64,000 bases of DNA from Patescibacteria group bacterium (GTDB lineage Bacteria; Patescibacteriota; Patescibacteriia; 2-02-FULL-49-11): NCBI GenBank assembly GCA_041645165.1, contig JBAZQN010000010.1, positions 102 through 64,101 on the forward strand. The letters run 5' to 3'. A program made the translations under genes and the position numbers. How positions within the stretch are numbered: the stretch's first letter is position 1; every line of letters begins with the position of its first letter. Under the pieces are notes generated by a model. It worked only from the letters and a program-made list of their open reading frames with translations. It made no database searches and was not told the origin of the DNA. Positions 7,246-54,371 of this stretch are shown one piece after another.

Positions 7246-7317
7246 GCGCCCGTCGTTCAATGGATAGGACACAAGATTGCGGATCTTGTAATGCAGGTTC
7301 AATTCCTGCCGGGCGCA
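7246..7317 (+). tRNA. tRNA-Arg (anticodon GCG)
   Basis: Acceptor GCGCCCG/CGGGCGC. Anticodon stem CAAGA/TCTTG with loop TTGCGGA. T-loop GGTTCAATTCC. Confidence 0.7.
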
Positions 7318-7400: not shown

Positions 7401-7427
7401 TACTAAAATGCCTGACTAATCGAATTT

Positions 7428-7531
7428 GTCATTCCTGATTTAATCAGGAATCCAGAAACAAAAATACGCAAAAACGTTCGTGGTGTCGGTTTTTATTTTC
7501 TTCTCTGGATTCCCGCTTTCGCGGGAATGAC
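7428..7531. mobile_element. ORF-less hairpin-bounded mini-element (GTCATTCC-hairpin-GGAATCCAGAAA ... TTCTCTGGATTCC-hairpin-GGGAATGAC)
   Basis: Same termini as the GIY-YIG-carrying elements at 15526-15897 and 19158-19612 and as the copy inside tsaC at 44401-44498. The left 25 bp recur at 56306-56330. Confidence 0.6.
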
Positions 7532-7559
7532 GACGGGGAAATCGAAAATGGAGTAGCAG

Positions 7560-10328
7560 TTGAGTATAGTTGATAATTTCATCCAACCGCCGCATACTGA
7601 TAACATGAATACCCTTTCTCTTTCTGATTCTCTTGCAGAACTCGGGCCCATGGGAAAACGGCTGAGCTCCCGTTTGAAGAGCCTCGGCATTATGAGCATC
7701 GAGGATCTGCTCTTTCACTATCCCTTCCGCTACGAGGACTGGTCTCGAGTTCTGCCTATCAAAAATCTCATCCCCGGCATGCAAGCCACGGTGAGCGCGA
7801 CGGTAAAAACTATTTCATTCCGTCCCGGGCGATGGAAGATAAAACCGCTCATTGAAGCGCTCCTTGAGGACCAGAACGGCGATCACATTCGCGCGGTATG
7901 GTTCAACGCGTCATACCTTATTAAAACCCTTACCCCGGGCACCGCGCTTCTGCTTTCCGGAAAAATTGACCGCTCAAAAGACGCGCTCCAACTCACCCAT
8001 CCCGTATGGGAAAAAAACACAACTCACGCCCCAATGCATACCGCGCGTATTATCCCGATTTATCATGCGACGAACACCATAAGCCAAAAACAGATCCGCT
8101 CGCTTATGGCAGTTTCTCTTCAAAATATCCCCTCCATCCCTGATCCGCTTCCCTCGTGGATAGCGTCAGGCGCCAAAATCATCCCTCTTGATCGCGCGAT
8201 CCGCGCCATCCATTTCCCGTCCACGTGGGCGGCTTTGAGTGCGGCGCAAACGCGGCTGAAATTCGACGAATTATTCCTTTTACAACTGCGCAGCGCGCTT
8301 GCCCGACAGGAGCTTACTGCGCTTAAAAGTACCCCCATTCCGTTCCATGAGACTCTTACGCGCACATTCGTTGCCCGTCTCCCTTTCAAGCTCACCACCG
8401 CACAGAGAAAAGCCGCCTGGGAAATTATTAAAGACCTCGGGAAGGGCAAGCCGATGAACCGCCTCCTGGAGGGCGATGTGGGATCGGGAAAGACCGTGGC
8501 CGCCGCCATTGCCGCCTTAAATGTGATTGCGAGCGGCCATCAGGTCGCCTATCTTGCGCCCACCGCCATACTCGCGGCACAGCAGTTCGCGACGTTTTGC
8601 CGTCTTTTTTCCGACACCCCCCTATGTCCCCCCCTTACGAAGGGGGGGAACGGGGGGGTCTTCACCATCGCGCTCATCACGCAGGGGGATATCAGGGTGA
8701 ATAAAATTCAAAGTTTCCCGCCTCAGCGGGATCCCGCATACCTTAGAGAATCAGATTCAAGGGGCGGGACAAAACCCAAAGTTCAAAATGAGAGAGGGTA
8801 TAAAAAAATTTCTAAGCAGGAGCTTGCAGTACTGTTAAGAAAAGGGAGAGTCGACATTTCGATTGGCACACATGCTTTACTTTCTGAACATATCCAATTT
8901 CAAAAACTGGCACTGGTCATCGTCGATGAACAGCACCGTTTCGGCGTCAACCAGAGAGCTGCGCTCCTGCGCAGATCAGCGCAGATAAAAACGCAGATAG
9001 ACGCAGATGCTGATGACTTTCTATATAAGGAATTGACATATCAAATAAGAGGAGCAGCATTTGAAGTGGCAAATAGCTTAGGCCTCGGTTTGAAAGAAAA
9101 TGTGTACCAAAAAGCACTTGAAGAATCATTAAAACAAAAAAGGCTCTTATATGAGCGAGAAAAATCAATTAATGTCTCATTCCACGATACGCGCGTGGGC
9201 AGCTTTAAGCCTGATTTTATTATTGACCAAAAGGTTATCGTAGAACTTAAAGCACTACCTTTTATTGGTAAAATTGAAGAAAAGCAACTCTGGAGTTACC
9301 TCAAAGGTTCAAATTACAAAGTTGCGTTACTCATCAATTTTGGCAACGATAAACTGGATATCAGAAGAATAATCTACGACACCGCGAGAGATAAAACGCC
9401 CCAACCGTCACCAAATCAGCATGCATCTGTGATTAATCAGCACATGTCTGCATCAAGTGATCTGCGACCATCTGCGTCTCATCTGCGTGAATCTGCGTAT
9501 GTGCCGCATCTGTTGTCCATGACCGCCACTCCCATTCCCCGTTCGCTTGCGCTGGTCGCCTACGCGGACCTAGATTTGTCAATCATCAATGAGCTGCCCA
9601 AAGGCCGCGCGCCGATTACCACTAAAATCATCCCGCCTGAACAACGGCAAGACGCGTATAATCTCATCAAGCAAGAGCTCTCATCCGGTCATCAAGCATT
9701 TATCATTTGCCCGCTCATTGATCCTTCCGATGCCTTAGGCGTGAAATCGGTGAAAGAGGAAGCAGAGCGCTTGAAACGAGAACACTTCCCCCATGTGAAT
9801 CTCGCCGCGCTCCATGGCCGCATGACGCCTGCGTCAAAAGACAAGATCATGGGCGCGTTTGCACAAGGAAGTATCCAGGTGCTGGTATCCACGCCAGTGG
9901 TCGAAGTGGGCATTGACGTGCCGAATGCCACGGTAATCCTTATAGAAAGCGCAGAACGGTTTGGGCTGGCGCAACTCCATCAGCTCCGCGGCCGGGTGGG
10001 AAGGAGCACCCACTCCTCGTGGTGCTTGCTCGCGACCGAAACAGAACAAGAGGAGGCGTTGAAACGCCTCCACGCGGCGGTCTCCTCCCGCGACGGCTTT
10101 GCGCTCGCCGAAATTGACCTAGAGATGCGCGGACCGGGAGAAGTGTACGGCACCCAGCAATCCGGCTTCCTCGACACTTTAAAAATCGCCAAGCTTACCG
10201 ATGTCATCATCCTTAAGCAATCAAAAGAGACGGTTGCCCGCCTCCTCCAAGAAGATCCCGCGCTTTCCCGCTACCCCTTACTCCAGCGCCGCCTCGCCGT
10301 ATTCGAGGAATCAGTGCATTTTGAATAG
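7560..10328 (+). CDS. recG: ATP-dependent DNA helicase RecG carrying three in-frame repeat or domain insertions
   Basis: Wedge N-terminus. Walker A GDVGSGKT. DEQH. TATPIPRS. RGRVGR. 922 aa against the ~700 typical of RecG, which is my recollection rather than a measured comparison. Confidence 0.85.
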   Translation: MSIVDNFIQPPHTDNMNTLSLSDSLAELGPMGKRLSSRLKSLGIMSIEDLLFHYPFRYEDWSRVLPIKNLIPGMQATVSATVKTISFRPGRWKIKPLIEALLEDQNGDHIRAVWFNASYLIKTLTPGTALLLSGKIDRSKDALQLTHPVWEKNTTHAPMHTARIIPIYHATNTISQKQIRSLMAVSLQNIPSIPDPLPSWIASGAKIIPLDRAIRAIHFPSTWAALSAAQTRLKFDELFLLQLRSALARQELTALKSTPIPFHETLTRTFVARLPFKLTTAQRKAAWEIIKDLGKGKPMNRLLEGDVGSGKTVAAAIAALNVIASGHQVAYLAPTAILAAQQFATFCRLFSDTPLCPPLTKGGNGGVFTIALITQGDIRVNKIQSFPPQRDPAYLRESDSRGGTKPKVQNERGYKKISKQELAVLLRKGRVDISIGTHALLSEHIQFQKLALVIVDEQHRFGVNQRAALLRRSAQIKTQIDADADDFLYKELTYQIRGAAFEVANSLGLGLKENVYQKALEESLKQKRLLYEREKSINVSFHDTRVGSFKPDFIIDQKVIVELKALPFIGKIEEKQLWSYLKGSNYKVALLINFGNDKLDIRRIIYDTARDKTPQPSPNQHASVINQHMSASSDLRPSASHLRESAYVPHLLSMTATPIPRSLALVAYADLDLSIINELPKGRAPITTKIIPPEQRQDAYNLIKQELSSGHQAFIICPLIDPSDALGVKSVKEEAERLKREHFPHVNLAALHGRMTPASKDKIMGAFAQGSIQVLVSTPVVEVGIDVPNATVILIESAERFGLAQLHQLRGRVGRSTHSSWCLLATETEQEEALKRLHAAVSSRDGFALAEIDLEMRGPGEVYGTQQSGFLDTLKIAKLTDVIILKQSKETVARLLQEDPALSRYPLLQRRLAVFEESVHFE
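8616..8661 (+). repeat. G/C-tract palindromic mini-insert inside recG, in frame (encodes ..PLCPPLTKGGNGG..)
   Basis: CACCCCCCCTATGTCCCCCCCTTACGAAGGGGGGGAACGGGGGGGTC. Same family at 15079-15117, 47275-47316 and 59489-59531. Confidence 0.7.
8715..8775 (+). repeat. CGGGATCCCG-core ~60-bp repeat unit inside recG, in frame
   Basis: TTCCCGCCTCAGCGGGATCCCGCATACCTTAGAGAATCAGATTCAAGGGGCGGGACAAAA. Same family at 15428-15490, 23123-23183 and 43921-44028. Confidence 0.65.
8958..9500 (+). mobile_element. In-frame insertion in recG encoding a GxxExxY (PD-(D/E)XK-like) domain, bounded by inverted heptamer arrays (CGCAGAT x4 on the left, ATCTGCG x4 on the right)
   Basis: Left array 8971-9009 and right array 9459-9497, period about 10-11 bp. 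The encoded segment LTYQIRGAAFEVANSLGLGLKENVYQKALEESL...VELKAL...LINFG has the hallmarks of the GxxExxY family and lies between the DEQH and TATPIPRS motifs. Confidence 0.6.
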
Positions 10329-10405: not shown

Positions 10406-11019
10406 TTACTTTAAACTAAACTCAATCAATGACTTTTTAACTTCGTTGTCATTAACTTTAAAGCCAGACAAATATACAACTTCTTCGCGGTAATCAACAT
10501 CATCAAAATAAGCAAGTTGATTTCGAAACATTCTTTCATTAAATTCACTTCCAAAAATCTGTCTAGTTTTTTTAATAATTTCCACGATTGAATGATAATC
10601 CCTCATGATGAAATAAAGATCCACGCAGTCTTTCCACTTGGCGCGCATGCCCAAAGCGTAAGCTTTCATGGCAGCTAATGTTAATAAATCAGGCATCTTA
10701 ATAATATCATCAAATTTTTTATTGTAATCTATCTTAAAATCATACTTGAAAAAAGTCATTTTTACCTTATTGACTATCAGATTAAATTGGTCTGTTTCAG
10801 CATAAAGTAATTTATCTATCTTTGCGAGTTGGCTTACTTTTCTCTTTATAACGGCGTTATTGAAACTCTTGTCAGTAAAAAGATCAAAATCAATAGAATG
10901 TCTGTGTCCAATATGCAATGCCACAGCAGTACCGCCAACTAAATCAAAATCCCGCGAAAAATATTTCACTACAGGCAGCAGTTTTATTTGCTCGATTGTT
11001 AATATCTCTTTATGCATAC
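10406..11019 (-). CDS. Nucleotidyltransferase, AbiEii/DUF1814-like
   Basis: LVGGTAVALHIGHRHSIDFDLF motif. The likely start, MHKEILTIEQ, overlaps the upstream ORF's stop (ATGCATAA). Confidence 0.5.
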
Positions 11020-11225
11020 CCAGTATATAAACTTCCCGCGCCAAACGCACGATTTTGACGAGTATAAGTTATTAATCTTAATTTTGTTGAAAAATTAAAA
11101 CCTTTATTATGTTCTTCCAATCGCTTCTTCAGGTTACGAGCAAACTCAATGTGCCTCTCGTCATCCTTCTTGCTTTCCAACACATAGACGCAGGAGAACA
11201 TACGGGAAGTTGTATTACTGGGCAT
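11010..11225 (-). CDS. Degenerate GIY-YIG-like small ORF
   Basis: MPSNTTSRMFSCVYVLESKKDDERHIEFARNLKKRLEEHNKG. GIY-YIG-like, but the YIG tyrosine and glycine are replaced. Confidence 0.3.
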   Translation of the reverse strand: MPSNTTSRMFSCVYVLESKKDDERHIEFARNLKKRLEEHNKGFNFSTKLRLITYTRQNRAFGAGSLYTGYA

Positions 11226-11472
11226 ATTTATTAAAATAAAGCCTGAAGTAATTTTTTGATTTTGGCAAATAATTGCACCTTTTCTGTTGCGACTTTTCCC
11301 TGAAAATCCGCGCCGCTTTTTTAATGCCCAAAATTTTAATAACTTTCTGCACATCGTCCCAGTCGCCGTAATTCAAAACCGCTTCCAGAATAGTCGCGTC
11401 TGAAAGTCCGTCATAGTTCTTTGTTGACCACACCAGGTATGGCTTTTTCTTTATATAATTTTGCAGCGTCAT
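11215..11472 (-). CDS. Hypothetical small protein
   Basis: 86-aa C-terminal portion (MTLQNYIKKKPYLVW...) of the 169-aa ORF. The upstream part of that ORF is translation of REP elements. Confidence 0.25.
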   Translation of the reverse strand: MTLQNYIKKKPYLVWSTKNYDGLSDATILEAVLNYGDWDDVQKVIKILGIKKAARIFREKSQQKRCNYLPKSKNYFRLYFNKYAQ

Positions 11473-11490
11473 AATTGAATTACACCGTTC

Positions 11491-11511
11491 GTTCAATCTT
11501 GCAGATTGAAC
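11491..11511. repeat. REP hairpin GTTCAATCT-TGC-AGATTGAAC plus conserved 3' flank
   Basis: The ~60-nt unit CGTTCGTTCAATCTTGCAGATTGAACGATTGTTTTTATCG.CGAACA..CCGGTA is also at 30436-30500 and 41497-41561. Confidence 0.75.
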
Positions 11512-11598
11512 GATTGGTTTTATCGCCGAACAGGCCGGTAATGCACATAATATCCAAGGATAGAGGCAGACGGTCGAATGGCTGATCAACTCTGCGGA

Positions 11599-11660
11599 TT
11601 CAGTCTGCAAGACTGAACCAACGTTAGTTCTATCTGCGTAAATCTGCGTTACATCAGCGT
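11599..11660. repeat. REP hairpin variant (TCAGTCT-GCA-AGACTGA) followed by an ATCTGCG heptamer array
   Basis: CAGTCTGCAAGACTGAACCAACGTTAGTTCTATCTGCGTAAATCTGCGTTACATCAGCGTTGATCTGCGTCC. Confidence 0.7.
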
Positions 11661-11730
11661 TGATCTGCGTCCATGTCGCCGCCTTCGCGCAATCGGCGCA
11701 TTTTGAGTAAAGCTGATCACGCACTCCTGT

Positions 11731-14553: not shown

Positions 14554-15426
14554 TTAAAATTCAAGCTCTACTAACCTCTCAATCTTTTTCTCCGTAATCT
14601 CTCCCGTCAAACGGTAAGAATTTATAAACAGGGCAGGTATCCCGTCAATATCAAGCGCCTGCGCCTCATCCATGCCCTGATTCACAAGATCAGTGGTCGC
14701 GCGGGTTTCTACACAGCGGTTGAATTCTTCAAGATTAAGCCCTAATTCTGATGCTATTATACCATACTTCGACGCAGATGCTCGCAGATAAGACGCAGAT
14801 TCACGCAGATCGTCGTTCATGACTTCGTCACGGGTCAATTTATCTATAAATTCCCAAAATTTACCTTGATTTTGCGCGCAACGGGCGGCAAGGGCGGCGG
14901 GGCGGGAGGCAGGATCTAAAGGATTCGGGAAATCTTTCCATACCAGATGCGCAGATGGTCGCAGATAAGACGCAGATTCACGCAGATCGTCGCGGATATA
15001 CGCAGATATTTGTTTCACCGCATCGCGGCACACTTCAACCACATGGTCGCAAAATAATACGATATTGACTGGTTCGACACCCCCCTCTTGCATCTCCCCC
15101 CTTTCTAGGGGGGAGGATATTGCTGGCAACACCGGGTCAGTGGGCAATACCGTGGGCGCAAACGGCGTATCTTCGCGCAGAGGCGCTAAAGGTTTAACCA
15201 GCGTGATGAGGGGGTCGCTAAAGGTGCCTTGCGCGAAACTGTCAGAGGCAAGCTCTGACGCTACATTTTGATTTTGGACTACTCTCTCTTGTTGATCGTC
15301 TTGAGACGACACAATGAACCCGAGCGCGCTCTTCCCAACTGCAAGCGCTCCCAAACCAAGGACGGCGAGAGAGAACAGCGTAATAGTGAGCGTGCGCGGG
15401 TGTATTTTCATAACTTTAAATCTCAA
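14554..15426 (-). CDS. DsbA-like thioredoxin-fold thiol:disulfide oxidoreductase carrying repeat-derived in-frame inserts
   Basis: DsbA-like C-terminus GIPALFINSYRLTGEI. Signal/TM N-terminus. Two direct CGCAGAT arrays (14770-14815, 14948-15010) encode DDLRESASYLR twice. G/C-tract insert at 15079-15117. Confidence 0.5.
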   Translation of the reverse strand: MRFKVMKIHPRTLTITLFSLAVLGLGALAVGKSALGFIVSSQDDQQERVVQNQNVASELASDSFAQGTFSDPLITLVKPLAPLREDTPFAPTVLPTDPVLPAISSPLERGEMQEGGVEPVNIVLFCDHVVEVCRDAVKQISAYIRDDLRESASYLRPSAHLVWKDFPNPLDPASRPAALAARCAQNQGKFWEFIDKLTRDEVMNDDLRESASYLRASASKYGIIASELGLNLEEFNRCVETRATTDLVNQGMDEAQALDIDGIPALFINSYRLTGEITEKKIERLVELEF

Positions 15427-15427
15427 A

Positions 15428-15490
15428 TCCTCACCGCTCAGGCGGGATCCCGCATACCTTAGATAAAATAATTCAAAGTGCGGGACAAAG
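15428..15490. repeat. CGGGATCCCG-core repeat unit (intergenic)
   Basis: TCACCGCTCAGGCGGGATCCCGCATACCTTAGATAAAATAATTCAAAGTGCGGGACAAAG. Confidence 0.65.
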
Positions 15491-15525: not shown

Positions 15526-15897
15526 GTCATCCCGGGCTTGACCCGGGATCCAGAAATAACAATAACACTAAAAATCATCAGAAAGATCTTTCCATCCTGG
15601 ATTTACCTCCTCAATCAAACGCAATTTCCACGCCCGTTTCCACCGTTTCATTTGTTTTTCCCTCGTGATTGCCGCATAGATATCAGAAAATTCTTCATAG
15701 TACACCAGTGTATGTACGTGATATTGCCGGGTAAATCCTGGTACCGCTCCCACCTTATGCTCATCTACTCTGCGTCTAAGGTCGTTCGGTACTCCAACGT
15801 ACAAAGTTCCGTTTTTCTGACTCGCCATGATGTACACGTAATAACTCTGCATGATTTTTGTTTATTTTTTCTGGATTCCTGCCTGCGCAGGAATGAC
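15526..15897. mobile_element. Hairpin-bounded element carrying a GIY-YIG gene
   Basis: Left end GTCATCCCGGGCTTGACCCGGGATCCAGAAA. Right end TTTCTGGATTCCTGCCTGCGCAGGAATGAC. Same termini as the ORF-less copies at 7428-7531 and 44401-44498. Confidence 0.6.
15568..15852 (-). CDS. GIY-YIG nuclease family protein
   Basis: 94 aa, YVYIMASQKNGTLYVGVPNDLRRRVDEH. About 80% identical to the 19200-19484 paralog. Confidence 0.7.
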   Translation of the reverse strand: MQSYYVYIMASQKNGTLYVGVPNDLRRRVDEHKVGAVPGFTRQYHVHTLVYYEEFSDIYAAITREKQMKRWKRAWKLRLIEEVNPGWKDLSDDF

Positions 15898-43045: not shown

Positions 43046-43903
43046 TCATATTTCACCATATTTTGAACGAAAAAGCGCTATCCAATCGTCTATATCTAGC
43101 TCTCCCGGACGCCTCTCTATTAACGCAGATAAACGCGGATTAAGACGCGGATTAACGCAGATATCGTTATCGTGAGGTAACGATAACGTGGTATGAATCT
43201 TACGCCGGGGAAAACGGAATGCAGGTTTGATGAAGCTGAAAAACGTTTCACTCTTGATATTTCCTCGCCGCTCGGCCGCTTGAGCGTCGCGAAGATCAAT
43301 CCGCACCAATGCGCTCTCAACCGCCGGCTGGGGCCAAAACGCAGAACGAGGAATAATCCTTAAAATTTCAACCTTGCCATACCATTGCACAATCACCGAA
43401 AGGAGAGACATATGCGGCGGACGTGCGTAAATCCTCTCTGCAACTTCTTTCTGAATAATGAGCACCATACGCTTCGGCAGATGATCATCCCGCAAAATGT
43501 AAGAAAAAAAATCAGAAGTAATGGAATAGGGAAGGCTTGCGACGACCACGAAATCCGACCACTGATGAACTGATGAACTGATGAACTGAATCGCATCTCC
43601 CTCAACAATCTCAACATTCTTCATTGAGCGGCGCTTGCACTCTTCTCGCAAAAATTTCACTAACTTCGACTCAATCTCTATCGCAGTCACGCGTCCTGCC
43701 GCGCCCGCAAGCGCAAATGTCAGCGCGCCGAATCCAGGACCGATCTCGTACACTGCATCAGCTGGCGTAATGCCCGCCGCCGCCACGGCGTCTTTCACCA
43801 CGCTCTCGTCAATTAAAAAATTCTGGCCGCGGTCTTTTGTCGGCCTGATGCGGTATTGCTCGCACAAAGATTTTAATTCGGGAACAGAAAGGAGAGAAGA
43901 CAT
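43046..43903 (-). CDS. rsmA: 16S rRNA (adenine1518/1519-N6)-dimethyltransferase
   Basis: RGQNFLID. VYEIGPGFGALT. Contains an in-frame 9-bp x3.5 tandem repeat (CTGATGAAC) at 43556-43590. Confidence 0.8.
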   Translation of the reverse strand: MSSLLSVPELKSLCEQYRIRPTKDRGQNFLIDESVVKDAVAAAGITPADAVYEIGPGFGALTFALAGAAGRVTAIEIESKLVKFLREECKRRSMKNVEIVEGDAIQFISSSVHQWSDFVVVASLPYSITSDFFSYILRDDHLPKRMVLIIQKEVAERIYARPPHMSLLSVIVQWYGKVEILRIIPRSAFWPQPAVESALVRIDLRDAQAAERRGNIKSETFFSFIKPAFRFPRRKIHTTLSLPHDNDICVNPRLNPRLSALIERRPGELDIDDWIALFRSKYGEI

Positions 43904-43920: not shown

Positions 43921-44028
43921 TTCTCCCGCTTAGGCGGGATCCCGCTGACATTTAAAGAAAATGATCAAAGAGCGGGACAATTCTCAATTTTTCCCGCTTG
44001 GCGGGATCCCGCTGTGGCGGGACATTCA
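43921..44028. repeat. Two tandem CGGGATCCCG-core repeat units
   Basis: TTCTCCCGCTTAGGCGGGATCCCGCTGACA...AGCGGGACAA, then TTTCCCGCTTGGCGGGATCCCGCTGTGGCGGGACA. Confidence 0.6.
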
Positions 44029-50755: not shown

Positions 50756-50819
50756 TGCCGAATTTCAAAATCTCACCGCTCAGGCGGGAAACTTTGAGCT
50801 TTGTCATTTCAAAAGGAAT

Positions 50820-53357: not shown

Positions 53358-54371
53358 CTAGGATTTACTGCGCTGAAGAAGTGTATACACTTGCTGCAAC
53401 TCAACAGGTAAGGGCGCATGATAAGTCTTTACCTCTCCTTGCAGATCAGTAAATGTAAGAGATGATGCATGGAGAAATGGGCGATTGAGGGTTGTTTTTA
53501 TTTGCCTGCGCGCCTTTCCTCCATAAAGCGGATCCCCGATGATAGGATGCCCTATCGCGGCAAGGTGTACCCTGATCTGATGCGTACGACCTGTCTTAGG
53601 AAATACCTTAAGAAAGGTGAGACGGGGGAAGCGCCTCGCGACTTCAAACCTTGTCAACGCTTCTCTCGCGTTGTGAGAAATTTTCAACGTTTCTGCGTCA
53701 GTCTGTGACCTCCTCTTATGAGGAAGCGCTGTCATTGTACCACGCCTTCGCGGACTCGTGCTACGCGTGAGAGGGAGCGCAATTTCGCCATGGTCATTCA
53801 CAAAGGTCCCCGCAACCAGCGCGTGATATTCCTTTTCGATTTTGCGTTCGCGAAATGCGCGGGAAAAATAATCAAACGCCTGCGGCGTACGGGCAATGAT
53901 CATCACGCCGGATACCAGCTTGTCCAGACGGTGCACAATCCCCGGGCGAGATGGATCTCCCCCAATCTTGCGCAATTCAGGATACCGAGGAAGGAGTAAA
54001 TCAATAAGGGTTGCGCCATGAATCCCAGGCGCAGCATGGACCGCGATCCCTGCCGGCTTATCAACGATGAGATAGTCATCCGTTTCGGCAATAATGGAAA
54101 TTTTCACATCTGCGTTGATCCGCGATAAAACCAAACGTGACGATCCGCGTTGATCTGCGATCTGTTTCACCTCCTCAACCTTCTGCCCTTCCTTCAGCGC
54201 GTAATGCGGCGTCATTGACTTTCCCTCAACCACCCACCTCCCTGCCTTAATATCACGCTGTATGGCAACCCGCGACTGTTCTGGCAATTTCTCCACCAAA
54301 AATTTATCTAATCGCTTGCCTTTGTCTGCTGGTTCAACAATAAATTGGGAGGTCATACGCAATGAGAACAA
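53358..54371 (-). CDS. rluD: RluA/RluD-family 23S rRNA pseudouridine synthase with an S4 domain
   Basis: HRLDKLVSGVMIIART catalytic motif. N-terminal S4-like RLDKFLVEKL. Confidence 0.8.
   Translation of the reverse strand: MFSLRMTSQFIVEPADKGKRLDKFLVEKLPEQSRVAIQRDIKAGRWVVEGKSMTPHYALKEGQKVEEVKQIADQRGSSRLVLSRINADVKISIIAETDDYLIVDKPAGIAVHAAPGIHGATLIDLLLPRYPELRKIGGDPSRPGIVHRLDKLVSGVMIIARTPQAFDYFSRAFRERKIEKEYHALVAGTFVNDHGEIALPLTRSTSPRRRGTMTALPHKRRSQTDAETLKISHNAREALTRFEVARRFPRLTFLKVFPKTGRTHQIRVHLAAIGHPIIGDPLYGGKARRQIKTTLNRPFLHASSLTFTDLQGEVKTYHAPLPVELQQVYTLLQRSKS

What the first reader, a model, noticed from the sequence alone, without database searches (positions are those of the whole stretch)
8600..9520. 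recG carries three different repeat-family insertions in frame, including a GxxExxY nuclease-like domain bounded by inverted heptamer arrays
A G/C-tract palindrome (8616-8661) and a CGGGATCCCG-core unit (8715-8775) lie between the Walker A motif and DEQH. An insert of about 540 bp lies between DEQH and TATPIPRS. Its ends are CGCAGAT x4 (8971-9009) and the inverted ATCTGCG x4 (9459-9497), and its core encodes a complete GxxExxY-family domain. That family usually occurs as stand-alone small ORFs or inside 23S rRNA intervening sequences. The frame is preserved throughout, giving 922 aa against the ~700 I would expect for RecG.
Basis: partly seen in the sequence, partly recalled or inferred. Interest (0 to 1): 0.75.

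Follow-up and report, generated by a model that had tools for sequence, protein, structure and literature searches.

The report
Nuclease cassette embedded in-frame in RecG
The recG helicase gene of this Patescibacteria genome carries, in frame, a roughly 530-bp cassette (a small nuclease gene between inverted arrays of a 7-base repeat); the same cassette sits in frame in many other housekeeping genes of this phylum, rather like an intein that never splices out.

Summary
ORF 7560/7605-10328 is a complete RecG. Three repeat-family inserts interrupt it in frame, and each is present or absent among close orthologs. The largest (8970-9497) is a full PD-(D/E)XK GxxExxY domain (E 1e-33) between four CGCAGAT heptamers and four inverted ATCTGCG heptamers, spaced 10-12 bp.

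This is not peculiar to this gene. The same cassette sits at the same RecG linker (helicase motif II to III) in dozens of Patescibacteria. It is also in frame in LepA, LeuRS, a Val/Ile-type tRNA synthetase, GatB, DHFR, RtcB, transketolase and glycosyltransferases, and it occurs as a stand-alone intergenic gene.

All 80 best loci from species-representative genomes are in-frame insertions. Their flanks carry about 3 CGCnGA repeats per 120 nt on each side, in inverted orientation, against 0.12 in background. The repeat variant is the same in both arms and follows the nuclease phylogeny. A divergent nuclease subtype at the same RecG site has a different repeat (CnCGAAT). Catalytic residues are invariant, dN/dS is about 0.04-0.09, and GC3 is lower than the host's in 76 of 78 loci.

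Best reading: a selfish nuclease-plus-repeat cassette tolerated as an extra domain on disordered linkers. The mobility mechanism is inferred. I found no published description.

The parts
7605..10328 (+). recG coding sequence. The maximal ORF starts at TTG 7560 (922 aa). The likely start is ATG 7605 (907 aa).
   Evidence: RecG_wedge, DEAD, Helicase_C and RecG_dom3_C domains; NCBIfam NF008168 scores 763.6 bits against a cut-off of 718; the AF2 model matches T. maritima RecG 1gm5 at E 5.6e-42; orthologs and P0001 start at MNTLSL.
8622..8660 (+). In-frame G/C-tract palindrome insert. It encodes LCPPLTKGGNGGV, between Walker A and DEQH.
   Evidence: inverted repeat 8617-8636 / 8640-8658; absent from L001, L085 and L003; a variant is present in L004; related palindromes elsewhere in the window; pLDDT about 60-68, a loop.
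8712..8780 (+). In-frame repeat unit with the CGGGATCCCG core (8727-8736). It encodes SFPPQRDPAYLRESDSRGGTKPK.
   Evidence: exact 22-nt copy at 15442-15463 and 95% copies at 44001-44022 and 50776-50797; present in L001, absent from L085 and L003; residues 386-411 have pLDDT below 50.
8970..9008 (+). Left arm of the cassette: four CGCAGAT heptamers at 8970, 8980, 8992 and 9002. Translated as RRSAQIKTQIDAD.
   Evidence: the linker is disordered (475-485, pLDDT below 50); the same motif and orientation in 80 other loci.
9012..9389 (+). GxxExxY / PDDEXK_3 nuclease domain. Motifs: G-LK-E-NV-Y, PD, and ExK in VELK.
   Evidence: full-length HMM matches, E about 1e-33; pLDDT 94. E29, D68, E78 and K80 are invariant. 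GC3 is 0.34 against 0.60 in the host gene.
9415..9452 (+). Inner, degenerate right-arm array: ATCAGCA 9415, ATCTGTG 9425, ATCAGCA 9436, GTCTGCA 9446. Translated as part of the low-complexity spacer.
   Evidence: Read directly from the sequence; spacing is 10, 11, 10; lies within the disordered segment 610-645. L003 lacks this extra stretch.
9460..9497 (+). Right arm of the cassette: four ATCTGCG heptamers at 9460, 9470, 9481 and 9491. Translated as DLRPSASHLRESA.
   Evidence: pairs in register with the left arm if the strand is folded alone (z = -4.9).

Best explanation
Positions 8970-9497 are one copy of a discrete genetic cassette. It is a PD-(D/E)XK (GxxExxY) nuclease ORF bracketed by inverted arrays of about four CGCnGA(T/A/C) heptamers, spaced one helical turn apart.

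**What it is.** The cassette is a selfish element of Patescibacteria. It lives inside housekeeping genes without inactivating them. It sits in a surface loop, here the RecG motif II-III linker. It keeps the reading frame at both junctions. It is translated as an independently folded extra domain, tethered by disordered linkers that the arrays encode.

**How it most likely works.**
- The heptamer arrays are the cognate DNA sites (ends) of the encoded nuclease.
- The cassette is propagated and maintained by nuclease-initiated, recombination-dependent copying into cognate or empty sites, which is a homing-like process.
- Inheritance is mostly faithful to the site, with occasional moves to new sites.
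- Decay leaves solo arrays or array-only 'empty cassettes'.

**Shown here**
- the cassette anatomy;
- in-frame residence in many unrelated hosts, and in intergenic DNA;
- recurrence at the same sites;
- presence/absence among close relatives;
- DNA-level conservation and symmetry of the arrays;
- covariation of repeat type with nuclease lineage;
- purifying selection on the nuclease domain;
- a compositional break between insert and host.

**Inferred, not shown**
- nuclease activity;
- that the nuclease binds the arrays;
- the homing mechanism.

The two smaller inserts in recG are copies of unrelated short palindromic repeat families. They are tolerated in loops in the same way.
For: **One cassette in many contexts**
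- all 80 best loci from species-representative genomes are in frame inside long ORFs.
- 31 are in RecG and 41 in LepA. The other eight are in LeuRS, a Val/Ile-type class-I tRNA synthetase, GatB and GT2/GT4 glycosyltransferases. Pfam confirmed one LepA host and six of these eight; I assigned the rest by sequence motif. Among the database proteins, Pfam also shows DHFR, RtcB and transketolase split by the domain.
- the cassette also occurs as a stand-alone intergenic gene, with arrays just before the ATG and around the stop codon (L086, L088).

**Arrays**
- 3.0 repeats upstream and 2.7 downstream per 120 nt, against 0.12 and 0.11 in background. 59 of 80 loci have at least 2 on both sides. Repeats in the wrong orientation are rare. 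Spacing peaks at 10-12 nt.
- the 7th base is the same in both arms in 48 of 62 loci (20 expected). The 4th base is free. The core is conserved in all three reading frames, so the constraint acts on DNA, not on the peptide.
- the repeat variant follows the nuclease tree (12 changes against 33 at random) and does not depend on the host gene.
- a divergent nuclease subtype at the same RecG site has a different repeat (CnCGAAT) in the same architecture.

**Turnover**
- L001 has an empty site, L004 a solo left array, L085 another palindromic insert.
- array-only 'empty cassettes' lie in frame in L013, L054 and L035.
- solo arrays lie in frame in four other window ORFs.
- insert and host diverge together only weakly (Spearman 0.30 and 0.19).
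- insert GC3 is below host GC3 in 76 of 78 loci.

**Functional protein**
- E29, D68, E78 and K80 are conserved in 81-82 of 82 copies; median dN/dS is 0.09.
- dN/dS is 0.04 for the window against L003.

**Structure**
- the RecG core and the inserted domain are modelled confidently. The linkers and the two small inserts are disordered.
Against: - No activity or binding has been tested.
- A 125-aa PD-(D/E)XK nuclease is not known to carry out strand transfer, so mobility must rely on host recombination.
- Copies in RecG and LepA of the same genome are only 53-63% identical, so there is no sign of recent movement within a genome.
- Synonymous sites are saturated between most copies while the protein is conserved. 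That means very long persistence, which is unusual for a purely selfish homing endonuclease and leaves room for a benefit to the host.
- The 80 loci were chosen as the best protein matches, which favours intact copies.
- The insert tree is a neighbour-joining tree on 126 residues and is poorly resolved.
- Within the window's own clade, vertical inheritance followed by three losses explains the pattern about as well as gains do.
- Solo single-arm arrays, such as two in the same orientation in ORF 14554-15426, are not simply explained as cassette remnants.
Confidence: 0.68

Rival explanations
1. Domesticated functional domain. RecG in these bacteria acquired a nuclease module that works with the helicase, for example to cleave the forks or junctions that RecG remodels. 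It is inherited vertically, and the heptamer-coded stretches are merely linkers.
For: The domain sits at one fixed site in RecG across lineages only 40-64% identical. Catalytic residues are invariant, and purifying selection is strong and long-lasting. GC3 partly follows the host (r = 0.77). Some solved PD-(D/E)XK relatives are junction resolvases (weak fold matches).
Against: The same cassette, with the same arrays, is in frame in LepA, LeuRS, GatB, DHFR, RtcB, transketolase and glycosyltransferases, where a nuclease has no obvious role, and also in intergenic DNA. The closest RecG relatives lack it. The linkers are conserved as DNA in changing reading frames, not as peptides. Co-divergence with the host is weak.
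Confidence: 0.14
2. Cut-and-paste transposon or MITE. The inverted arrays are terminal inverted repeats, the GxxExxY protein is the transposase, and solo or empty arrays are non-autonomous derivatives mobilised in trans.
For: The architecture is an inverted-repeat pair around a single ORF. Array-only derivatives and dispersed solo arrays exist. Repeat type covaries with the nuclease lineage.
Against: There are no target-site duplications: the longest shared flank word averages 3.08 nt against 3.01 in shuffles. The window has no second full copy. Copies in the same genome are 53-63% identical. Copies cluster by host site (12 changes against 32 at random). The PD-(D/E)XK fold alone is not known to perform strand transfer (established knowledge of the superfamily).
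Confidence: 0.1
3. Intervening sequence removed at the RNA level. The two arms pair in the transcript into a long interrupted stem, as in 23S rRNA intervening sequences. The stem is cleaved, and perhaps religated by RtcB, so mature RecG lacks the insert.
For: Folded alone, 8960-9510 pairs all four heptamers of one arm with those of the other: MFE -157 against -125 kcal/mol in shuffles, z = -4.9.
Against: Both junctions keep the host frame in 80 of 80 loci, and the domain has no start codon of its own. Neither would be needed if the segment were spliced out. In 24 of 62 loci the central position of each 7-bp helix is mismatched between the arms. No Rfam family matches here. Cleavage without religation would destroy the recG mRNA.
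Confidence: 0.05
4. Intein, or an assembly or annotation artefact.
For: It is an in-frame insert at a conserved site of a helicase with a sporadic distribution, as inteins are.
Against: No Hint or intein family is among the Pfam or NCBIfam matches. The junctions read LL|RRSAQI and ESAYV|PHLL, with no Cys/Ser/Thr nucleophile or His-Asn in the intein positions. The identical protein comes from three sources, and more than 80 independent assemblies show the same architecture.
Confidence: 0.02

Closest known systems
Inteins with nested homing endonucleases, and free-standing or intron-borne homing endonuclease genes (including the PD-(D/E)XK type such as I-Ssp6803I, cited from my own knowledge)
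   Same: In-frame residence at recurrent sites next to conserved motifs of housekeeping genes. Sporadic presence among close relatives. An intact nuclease under selection. Copies at one site tend to be related even when hosts are distant, the pattern reported for LAGLIDADG genes in CPR rRNA insertions (PMC11270868).
   Different: There is no splicing domain and no ribozyme, so the insert evidently stays in the protein. It is bounded by inverted arrays of short repeats, which homing elements do not have. The same cassette also occurs in intergenic DNA.
Rickettsia palindromic elements (from my own knowledge: Ogata et al. 2000, not retrieved here) and other palindromic coding repeats such as the one in PMC2996958 (title and abstract only)
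   Same: Palindromic repeats inserted in frame in protein-coding genes and tolerated as surface peptide segments. The two small recG inserts and the solo heptamer arrays behave this way.
   Different: Those elements encode no protein. Here the palindrome arms enclose a conserved nuclease gene.
REP/REPIN sequences with their RAYT transposase (from my own knowledge)
   Same: A single enzyme gene flanked by inverted copies of a short repeat that is also dispersed in the genome. Repeat type covaries with the enzyme lineage.
   Different: The enzyme is a PD-(D/E)XK nuclease, not a Y1 (HUH) transposase. The repeats are arrays of heptamers at helical spacing rather than hairpins. The elements sit in frame inside genes.
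MITEs and TIR transposons with subterminal repeated binding sites (review PMC10969869, title and abstract only)
   Same: Inverted ends built from repeated short motifs, and ORF-less derivatives.
   Different: No target-site duplication, no known transposase fold, and no near-identical copies within a genome.

Membership tests
RecG helicase | Wedge domain, SF2 helicase motifs (Walker A, DEQH, TATPIPR) and the RecG C-terminal domain | tested here: met
   PF17191, PF00270, PF00271 and PF19833 match. GSGKT, DEQH and TATPIPRS are present and lie in invariant alignment columns.
RecG helicase | Score above the curated equivalog cut-off, and the RecG fold | tested here: met
   NF008168 scores 763.6 bits against a cut-off of 718; other RecG models fall below their cut-offs because of the inserts; 1gm5_A at E 5.6e-42, TM-score 0.69 normalised to the target.
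GxxExxY / PDDEXK_3 (TIGR04256, PF13366) | Full-length HMM match above the cut-off | tested here: met
   PF13366 positions 1-117 of 117, 113.6 bits (cut-off 22). TIGR04256 positions 1-116 of 116, 117 bits (cut-off 35).
GxxExxY / PDDEXK_3 (TIGR04256, PF13366) | GxxExxY motif and the PD...ExK catalytic residues | tested here: met
   G26, E29, Y32, D68, E78 and K80 of the core are conserved in 79-82 of 82 embedded copies. The window reads GLKENVY, PDF and VELK.
GxxExxY / PDDEXK_3 (TIGR04256, PF13366) | Nuclease activity | not testable with these tools
   The family's function is listed as unknown in PMC3424549. There are only weak fold matches to solved PD-(D/E)XK nucleases.
Intein | Hint splicing domain with nucleophile and His-Asn junction residues | tested here: not met
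   no Hint or intein family matched; the junctions are LL|RRSAQI and ESAYV|PHLL.
Homing endonuclease element (functional class) | Sporadic occupancy of one site in a conserved gene, with an intact nuclease | tested here: met
Homing endonuclease element (functional class) | Insert phylogeny incongruent with host phylogeny | tested here: inconclusive
   weak correlation (rho 0.30 and 0.19), and many pairs where the insert is much more similar than the host. But sites are saturated and the tree is a short neighbour-joining tree.
Homing endonuclease element (functional class) | The nuclease cleaves the empty allele | not testable with these tools
   This needs a cleavage assay on the L001-type empty site.
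TIR transposon / MITE | Terminal inverted repeats | tested here: met
TIR transposon / MITE | Target-site duplication | tested here: not met
   the flank overlap is no greater than in shuffled pairs.
TIR transposon / MITE | Multiple near-identical copies within a genome | tested here: not met
   one full copy in the 64-kb window; copies in the same genome are 53-63% identical.
REPIN-RAYT-like system | Enzyme gene flanked by inverted repeats that are also dispersed in the genome | tested here: met
   solo arrays elsewhere in the window; stand-alone genes flanked by arrays.
REPIN-RAYT-like system | Y1/HUH transposase | tested here: not met
   the only enzyme domain is PD-(D/E)XK.
rRNA-type intervening sequence | Location in an rRNA gene and removal from the transcript through a terminal stem | tested here: not met
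   The host is a protein-coding gene whose frame is kept. A stem is predicted in this copy, but it is not conserved across loci. Removal was not testable.

The most novel reading that the evidence does not exclude
GxxExxY (PF13366/TIGR04256) nucleases, whose function is so far listed as unknown, are the enzymes of a previously unrecognised class of repeat-associated selfish elements. Each nuclease lineage is paired with its own heptamer (CGCnGAy, CnCGAAT, or CACRGAC in a non-CPR locus), arranged as inverted arrays at helical spacing. In Patescibacteria these cassettes have adopted an intein-like way of life without splicing: they colonise permissive loops of essential proteins and are translated as extra domains. 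If so, RecG, LepA, tRNA synthetases and other core proteins of this phylum routinely carry an active nuclease.
Probability: 0.45. Interest if true: 0.85.

Novelty: new variant of a known kind. Interest (0 to 1): 0.8.

Why it matters
- It gives a first genomic context, and a testable DNA partner, to a large family of uncharacterised nucleases: 8,742 representative clusters at E <= 1e-3.
- It shows a third way for a nuclease-bearing selfish element to live inside essential genes, besides RNA splicing (introns) and protein splicing (inteins). The element simply stays in the protein as a tethered domain.
- It explains a class of over-long core proteins in Patescibacteria. This RecG is named 'GxxExxY protein' in NCBI.
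- It points to naturally permissive insertion loops in RecG, LepA, LeuRS, GatB and other proteins.
- It offers short defined repeats with a cognate small nuclease that could be tested directly in vitro.

Tried and rejected
- **Intein:** no Hint domain and no junction residues.
- **Target-site duplications:** none.
- **Other full copies in the window:** none by tblastn.
- **Rfam:** only three tRNAs in the window, and nothing at the cassette.
- **Solved structures:** by sequence, nothing significant; by fold, only weak generic PD-(D/E)XK matches with E >= 1e-3.
- **Viral contigs:** no relatives of this clade.
- **Wide domain alignment A3 for a locus search:** The narrower alignment A4 was used instead.
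- **L085 insert as a decayed cassette:** no similarity to the window insert. It is a different palindromic element.
- **Recent jumps between RecG and LepA within a genome:** not supported.
- **Literature:** searches for GxxExxY, PDDEXK_3, PF13366 and TIGR04256, for in-frame elements in CPR, and for homing endonucleases in Patescibacteria found no description of this cassette. One search failed on term syntax. The library does not hold all papers, so this is not proof that it is undescribed.
- **23S rRNA claim:** that the family occurs in 23S rRNA intervening sequences could not be checked.
Full report
**1. The observation**

The window ORF 7560..10328 (+) is 922 aa from a TTG start. The database protein P0001 and the orthologs begin at the ATG at 7605, giving 907 aa.

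It is a complete RecG.
- The wedge, DEAD, Helicase_C and RecG_dom3_C domains all match.
- The NCBIfam equivalog NF008168 scores 763.6 bits against a cut-off of 718.
- The AlphaFold2 model matches T. maritima RecG 1gm5 at E 5.6e-42.
- Walker A is at 8481-8495, DEQH at 8925-8936 and TATPIPRS at 9522-9545.

Between DEQH and TATPIPRS lies a full-length PDDEXK_3 / GxxExxY domain at aa 490-605, E about 1e-33. Four CGCAGAT heptamers (8970, 8980, 8992, 9002) precede it. Four ATCTGCG heptamers (9460, 9470, 9481, 9491) follow it. The window holds 36 copies of the heptamer against 10.7 expected, and none of 100 shuffles reaches 36. An inner, degenerate set of four heptamer-like units (9415, 9425, 9436, 9446) can be read directly in the sequence.

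The G/C-tract palindrome has arms at 8617-8636 and 8640-8658. The CGGGATCCCG unit has its core at 8727-8736. Both have further copies in the window.

An alignment with the four closest RecG genes shows that each of the three inserts is present in some and absent in others.
- The palindrome is missing from L001 (92% identical host), L085 and L003.
- The CGGGATCCCG unit is missing from L085 and L003.
- The cassette is missing from L001.

**2. The cassette in RecG of other lineages**

About 50 of the 120 best RecG homologs carry PF13366. All are from Patescibacteria-type assemblies and are 40-64% identical to the window protein. In every one the domain sits in the same linker, between DEQHRFGVxQR..LL and PH(L/F)LSMTATPIPR. 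Without an insert this linker is 17-25 aa long.

The flanking peptides (TQI, NAD, RRS or RGQ on the left; LRESA, PRESA or QRKSA on the right) are the three reading frames of CGCAGAT and ATCTGCG. The frame in use differs among orthologs, and even among heptamers within one array.

The closest relatives behave differently.
- L001 has an empty site with one heptamer-like word on each side: CGCGGAT ... ATCTGCT.
- L004 keeps a solo left array of four heptamers, with no domain and no right arm.
- L085 has an unrelated palindromic insert of 93 aa at the same place.
- L003 (host 60% identical) has the full cassette, with 4 + 4 heptamers.

Between the window and L003 the core is 91% identical in protein and 83% in DNA, with dN 0.055 and dS 1.36. 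The host gene has dN 0.35 and saturated synonymous sites.

**3. The cassette is not tied to RecG**

I searched 1.84 billion representative proteins with the 126-aa core. There were 8,742 matches at E <= 1e-3. The closest ones are almost all embedded in longer proteins at varied positions, and each has array-coded peptides on both sides.

A scan of one genome per species (GTDB) gave 283 confirmed loci. All 80 of the best lie in frame inside long ORFs.
- 31 are in RecG and 41 are in LepA, between the G2 and G3 motifs.
- The rest are in LeuRS (four loci, same site), a Val/Ile-type class-I tRNA synthetase, GatB and GT2 and GT4 glycosyltransferases.
- Pfam shows the host domain split by PDDEXK_3 in seven loci (a LepA, two LeuRS, the Val/Ile-type synthetase, GatB, GT2 and GT4). 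It shows the same in DHFR, RtcB and transketolase proteins.

Stand-alone intergenic copies exist too. Their arrays lie immediately before the ATG and around the stop codon (L086, L088; degenerate in L087). Stand-alone proteins of this clade start or end with array-coded peptides.

The unit is therefore discrete. It measures a median of 468 bp from outer heptamer to outer heptamer, range 443-565.

**4. The arrays**

Over the 80 loci, CGC[AGT]GA occurs 3.0 times in the 120 nt upstream. Its reverse complement occurs 2.7 times in the 120 nt downstream. Background is 0.13 and 0.11. There are 7 and 10 occurrences in the wrong orientation in total. 59 loci have at least two on both sides. Spacing is 10 nt (160 cases), 11 nt (58) or 12 nt (33).

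- The 7th base (T, A or C) is the same in the two arms in 48 of 62 loci, with 20 expected.
- The 4th base is essentially free: 35 of 62, with 23 expected. In the right arm it often falls on the third position of a serine codon.

A core conserved in all three frames, with a free central base, points to a constraint on the DNA. It does not fit a constraint on the peptide. It fits a conserved RNA helix poorly, because 24 of 62 loci would have a central mismatch. In this particular copy the arms are perfectly matched, and a single strand is predicted to pair them in register (z = -4.9). An RNA or single-stranded DNA stem therefore cannot be excluded here.

The repeat variant follows the nuclease tree (12 changes against 33 in shuffles, minimum 26). 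It is independent of the host gene.

A divergent PDDEXK_3 subtype occupies the same RecG site in L089 and L090. It is flanked by a different repeat, CnCGAAT, in the same inverted arrangement at about 10-nt spacing.

A non-CPR stand-alone GxxExxY gene (L091, L093) lies between palindromic units of about 190 bp that are built from CACRGAC heptamers.

Nuclease lineage and repeat type thus vary together. This is what one expects if the nuclease recognises the repeats. The link remains an inference.

**5. Evolutionary behaviour**

- Insert identity correlates only weakly with host identity: Spearman 0.30 for 31 RecG loci and 0.19 for 22 LepA loci. In many pairs the insert is far more similar than the conserved host segments.
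- On a neighbour-joining tree, inserts cluster by host site (12 changes against 32 at random), but RecG and LepA clades are interleaved. Inheritance is mostly faithful to the site, with some switches.
- RecG and LepA copies in the same genome are only 53-63% identical, so nothing suggests recent jumps within a genome.
- Insert GC3 is below host GC3 in 76 of 78 loci (means 0.30 and 0.45; window 0.34 and 0.60). It still follows the host (r = 0.77, slope 0.64). This is a compositional break inside a single ORF, with partial amelioration.
- There are no target-site duplications.
- Array-only 'empty cassettes' lie in frame in L013, L054 and L035.
- Solo arrays lie in frame in four other window ORFs.
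- Catalytic residues are conserved in 81-82 of 82 copies, and median dN/dS is 0.09. The loci were chosen as the best matches, which favours intact copies.

**6. Structure**

- In the full-length model (mean pLDDT 83), the RecG core and residues 490-605 have pLDDT above 90.
- The array-coded linkers (475-485 and 610-645) and the CGGGATCCCG insert (386-411) are below 50. The G/C palindrome insert is at about 60-68.
- The isolated domain models at pLDDT 94 with the alpha-beta core typical of PD-(D/E)XK enzymes.
- Its fold matches are weak: Cas4 SSO0001, alkaline exonucleases, tRNA splicing endonuclease, the I-Bth0305I catalytic domain and Hjc.
- I could not measure how the domain packs against RecG.

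**7. Interpretation**

The diversity of unrelated hosts, the intergenic copies, the DNA-level conservation of symmetric arrays and the turnover among close relatives all argue for a selfish cassette and against a RecG-specific functional fusion.

The cassette survives in essential genes because it keeps the frame and folds on its own between disordered linkers in permissive loops.

I favour nuclease-initiated, recombination-dependent copying (homing-like), with the arrays as the nuclease's cognate sites. Three results point that way: there are no target-site duplications, copies are faithful to their site, and a minimal PD-(D/E)XK fold is not known to perform strand transfer.

The very long persistence under purifying selection keeps host benefit as a live rival. 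A maintenance or 'anti-loss' role of the nuclease would fit the same data.

Removal at the RNA level is unlikely, because both junctions are in frame in 80 of 80 loci. An intein is excluded.

**8. Comparison with what is known, and novelty**

The closest analogues are:
- inteins and homing endonuclease genes (same niche and dynamics, but no splicing here);
- Rickettsia palindromic elements (in-frame palindromic repeats, but without an ORF);
- REPIN-RAYT systems (an enzyme gene flanked by its dispersed repeat, but a different enzyme and a different repeat type);
- TIR transposons and MITEs (inverted ends, but no target-site duplication and no transposase).

The survey of the PD-(D/E)XK superfamily lists PF13366 as of unknown function with multiple transfers (PMC3424549). 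The CPR study of insertions in rRNA genes deals with LAGLIDADG enzymes in introns (PMC11270868). None of my searches found a description of this cassette. The library is incomplete, so this does not prove it is undescribed.

I classify the finding as a new variant of a known kind: a selfish nuclease element inserted in frame.

Noticed in passing
window 14773-14810 and 14950-15007 (ORF 14554-15426, minus strand): Two solo CGCAGAT arrays (4 and 6 heptamers) in the same orientation, 140 bp apart. They lie in frame in a thioredoxin/DsbA-like ORF and are translated as DDLRESASYLR(P/A)SA. The orthologs in L003 and L004 are annotated Thioredoxin_4/DSBA. Two arrays in the same orientation are not explained by decay of a single cassette.
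   Followed up: partly
window 43124-43162 (ORF 43046-43903, minus strand); 54108-54159 (ORF 53358-54371, minus strand); 11632-11669 (ORF 11215-11724, minus strand): Further solo heptamer arrays in frame in three ORFs. By my reading of the sequences, two of them look like an RsmA/KsgA-type methyltransferase and an RluD-type pseudouridine synthase. The peptides are ICVNPRLNPRLSA, QIADQRGSSRLVLSRINAD and TQINADVTQIYAD. The host families were not checked with a tool.
   Followed up: partly
window 9415-9452: An inner, degenerate set of four heptamer-like units (ATCAGCA, ATCTGTG, ATCAGCA, GTCTGCA) lies just inside the perfect right arm, as if the right array had been duplicated or renewed. L003 lacks this stretch.
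   Followed up: partly
P0001 (the window RecG as held in NCBI): The 907-aa RecG is named 'MAG: GxxExxY protein' in NCBI, and several orthologs are named the same way. The embedded domain has taken over the product name.
   Followed up: no
L085:118-2457 (P0003): At exactly the same RecG linker, this 81%-identical ortholog carries a different 93-aa in-frame insert. It is made of a long palindrome with no similarity to the cassette, so the site is a general hot spot for in-frame repeats.
   Followed up: partly
L089:501-3071 and L090:501-3023 (P0032, P0027): A divergent PDDEXK_3 subtype sits at the same RecG site, flanked by inverted arrays of a different repeat (CnCGAAT, for example ATCCGAAT three times on the left and ATTCGGG/ATTCGGA four times on the right) at about 10-nt spacing.
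   Followed up: partly
L091 and L093, around 1501-1863: A non-CPR-type stand-alone GxxExxY gene (120 aa, seen on 24 or more contigs) lies between direct copies of a palindromic unit of about 190 bp. Each unit contains CACAGAC/CACGGAC heptamer arrays and a central GC hairpin. The link between this nuclease family and heptamer arrays may therefore extend beyond Patescibacteria.
   Followed up: partly
L013, L054, L035, L064, L011 (host ORFs): Array-only 'empty cassettes' (left and right arrays with a short spacer, for example QTDADYTQNYAEENFLHGSASSQRSSA) and solo arms occur in frame at additional sites of the same tRNA synthetase, GatB and glycosyltransferase genes.
   Followed up: partly
window 10406-11050 (minus strand), 11010-11354 (minus strand), 15568-15852 (minus strand): Downstream of recG lies an ORF that corresponds to the AbiEii-family gene conserved in L001, L004 and L085. 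Two small ORFs look like GIY-YIG nucleases by my reading of the sequence (YVYIMAS..GTLYVG and VYVLESKKD). This suggests a neighbourhood rich in small selfish or defence genes. None of this was checked with a tool in the window itself.
   Followed up: no
window 7420-7540 and 7246-7317: Palindromic repeats (CATTCCTGATTTAATCAGGAATCC and GGATTCCCGCTTTCGCGGGAATGAC) lie between a tRNA gene (7246-7317, Rfam 64.9 bits) and the recG start. They belong to yet another short repeat family.
   Followed up: no
LepA loci L010, L012, L018, L021, L023, L026-L028: In many LepA copies the last right-arm heptamer is followed by the same junction, CA(A/G)GTTGAG (AQVE), before the host YILNLIDTPGH, although the hosts are only about 55% identical. 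This could reflect common ancestry or co-conversion of flanks.
   Followed up: no
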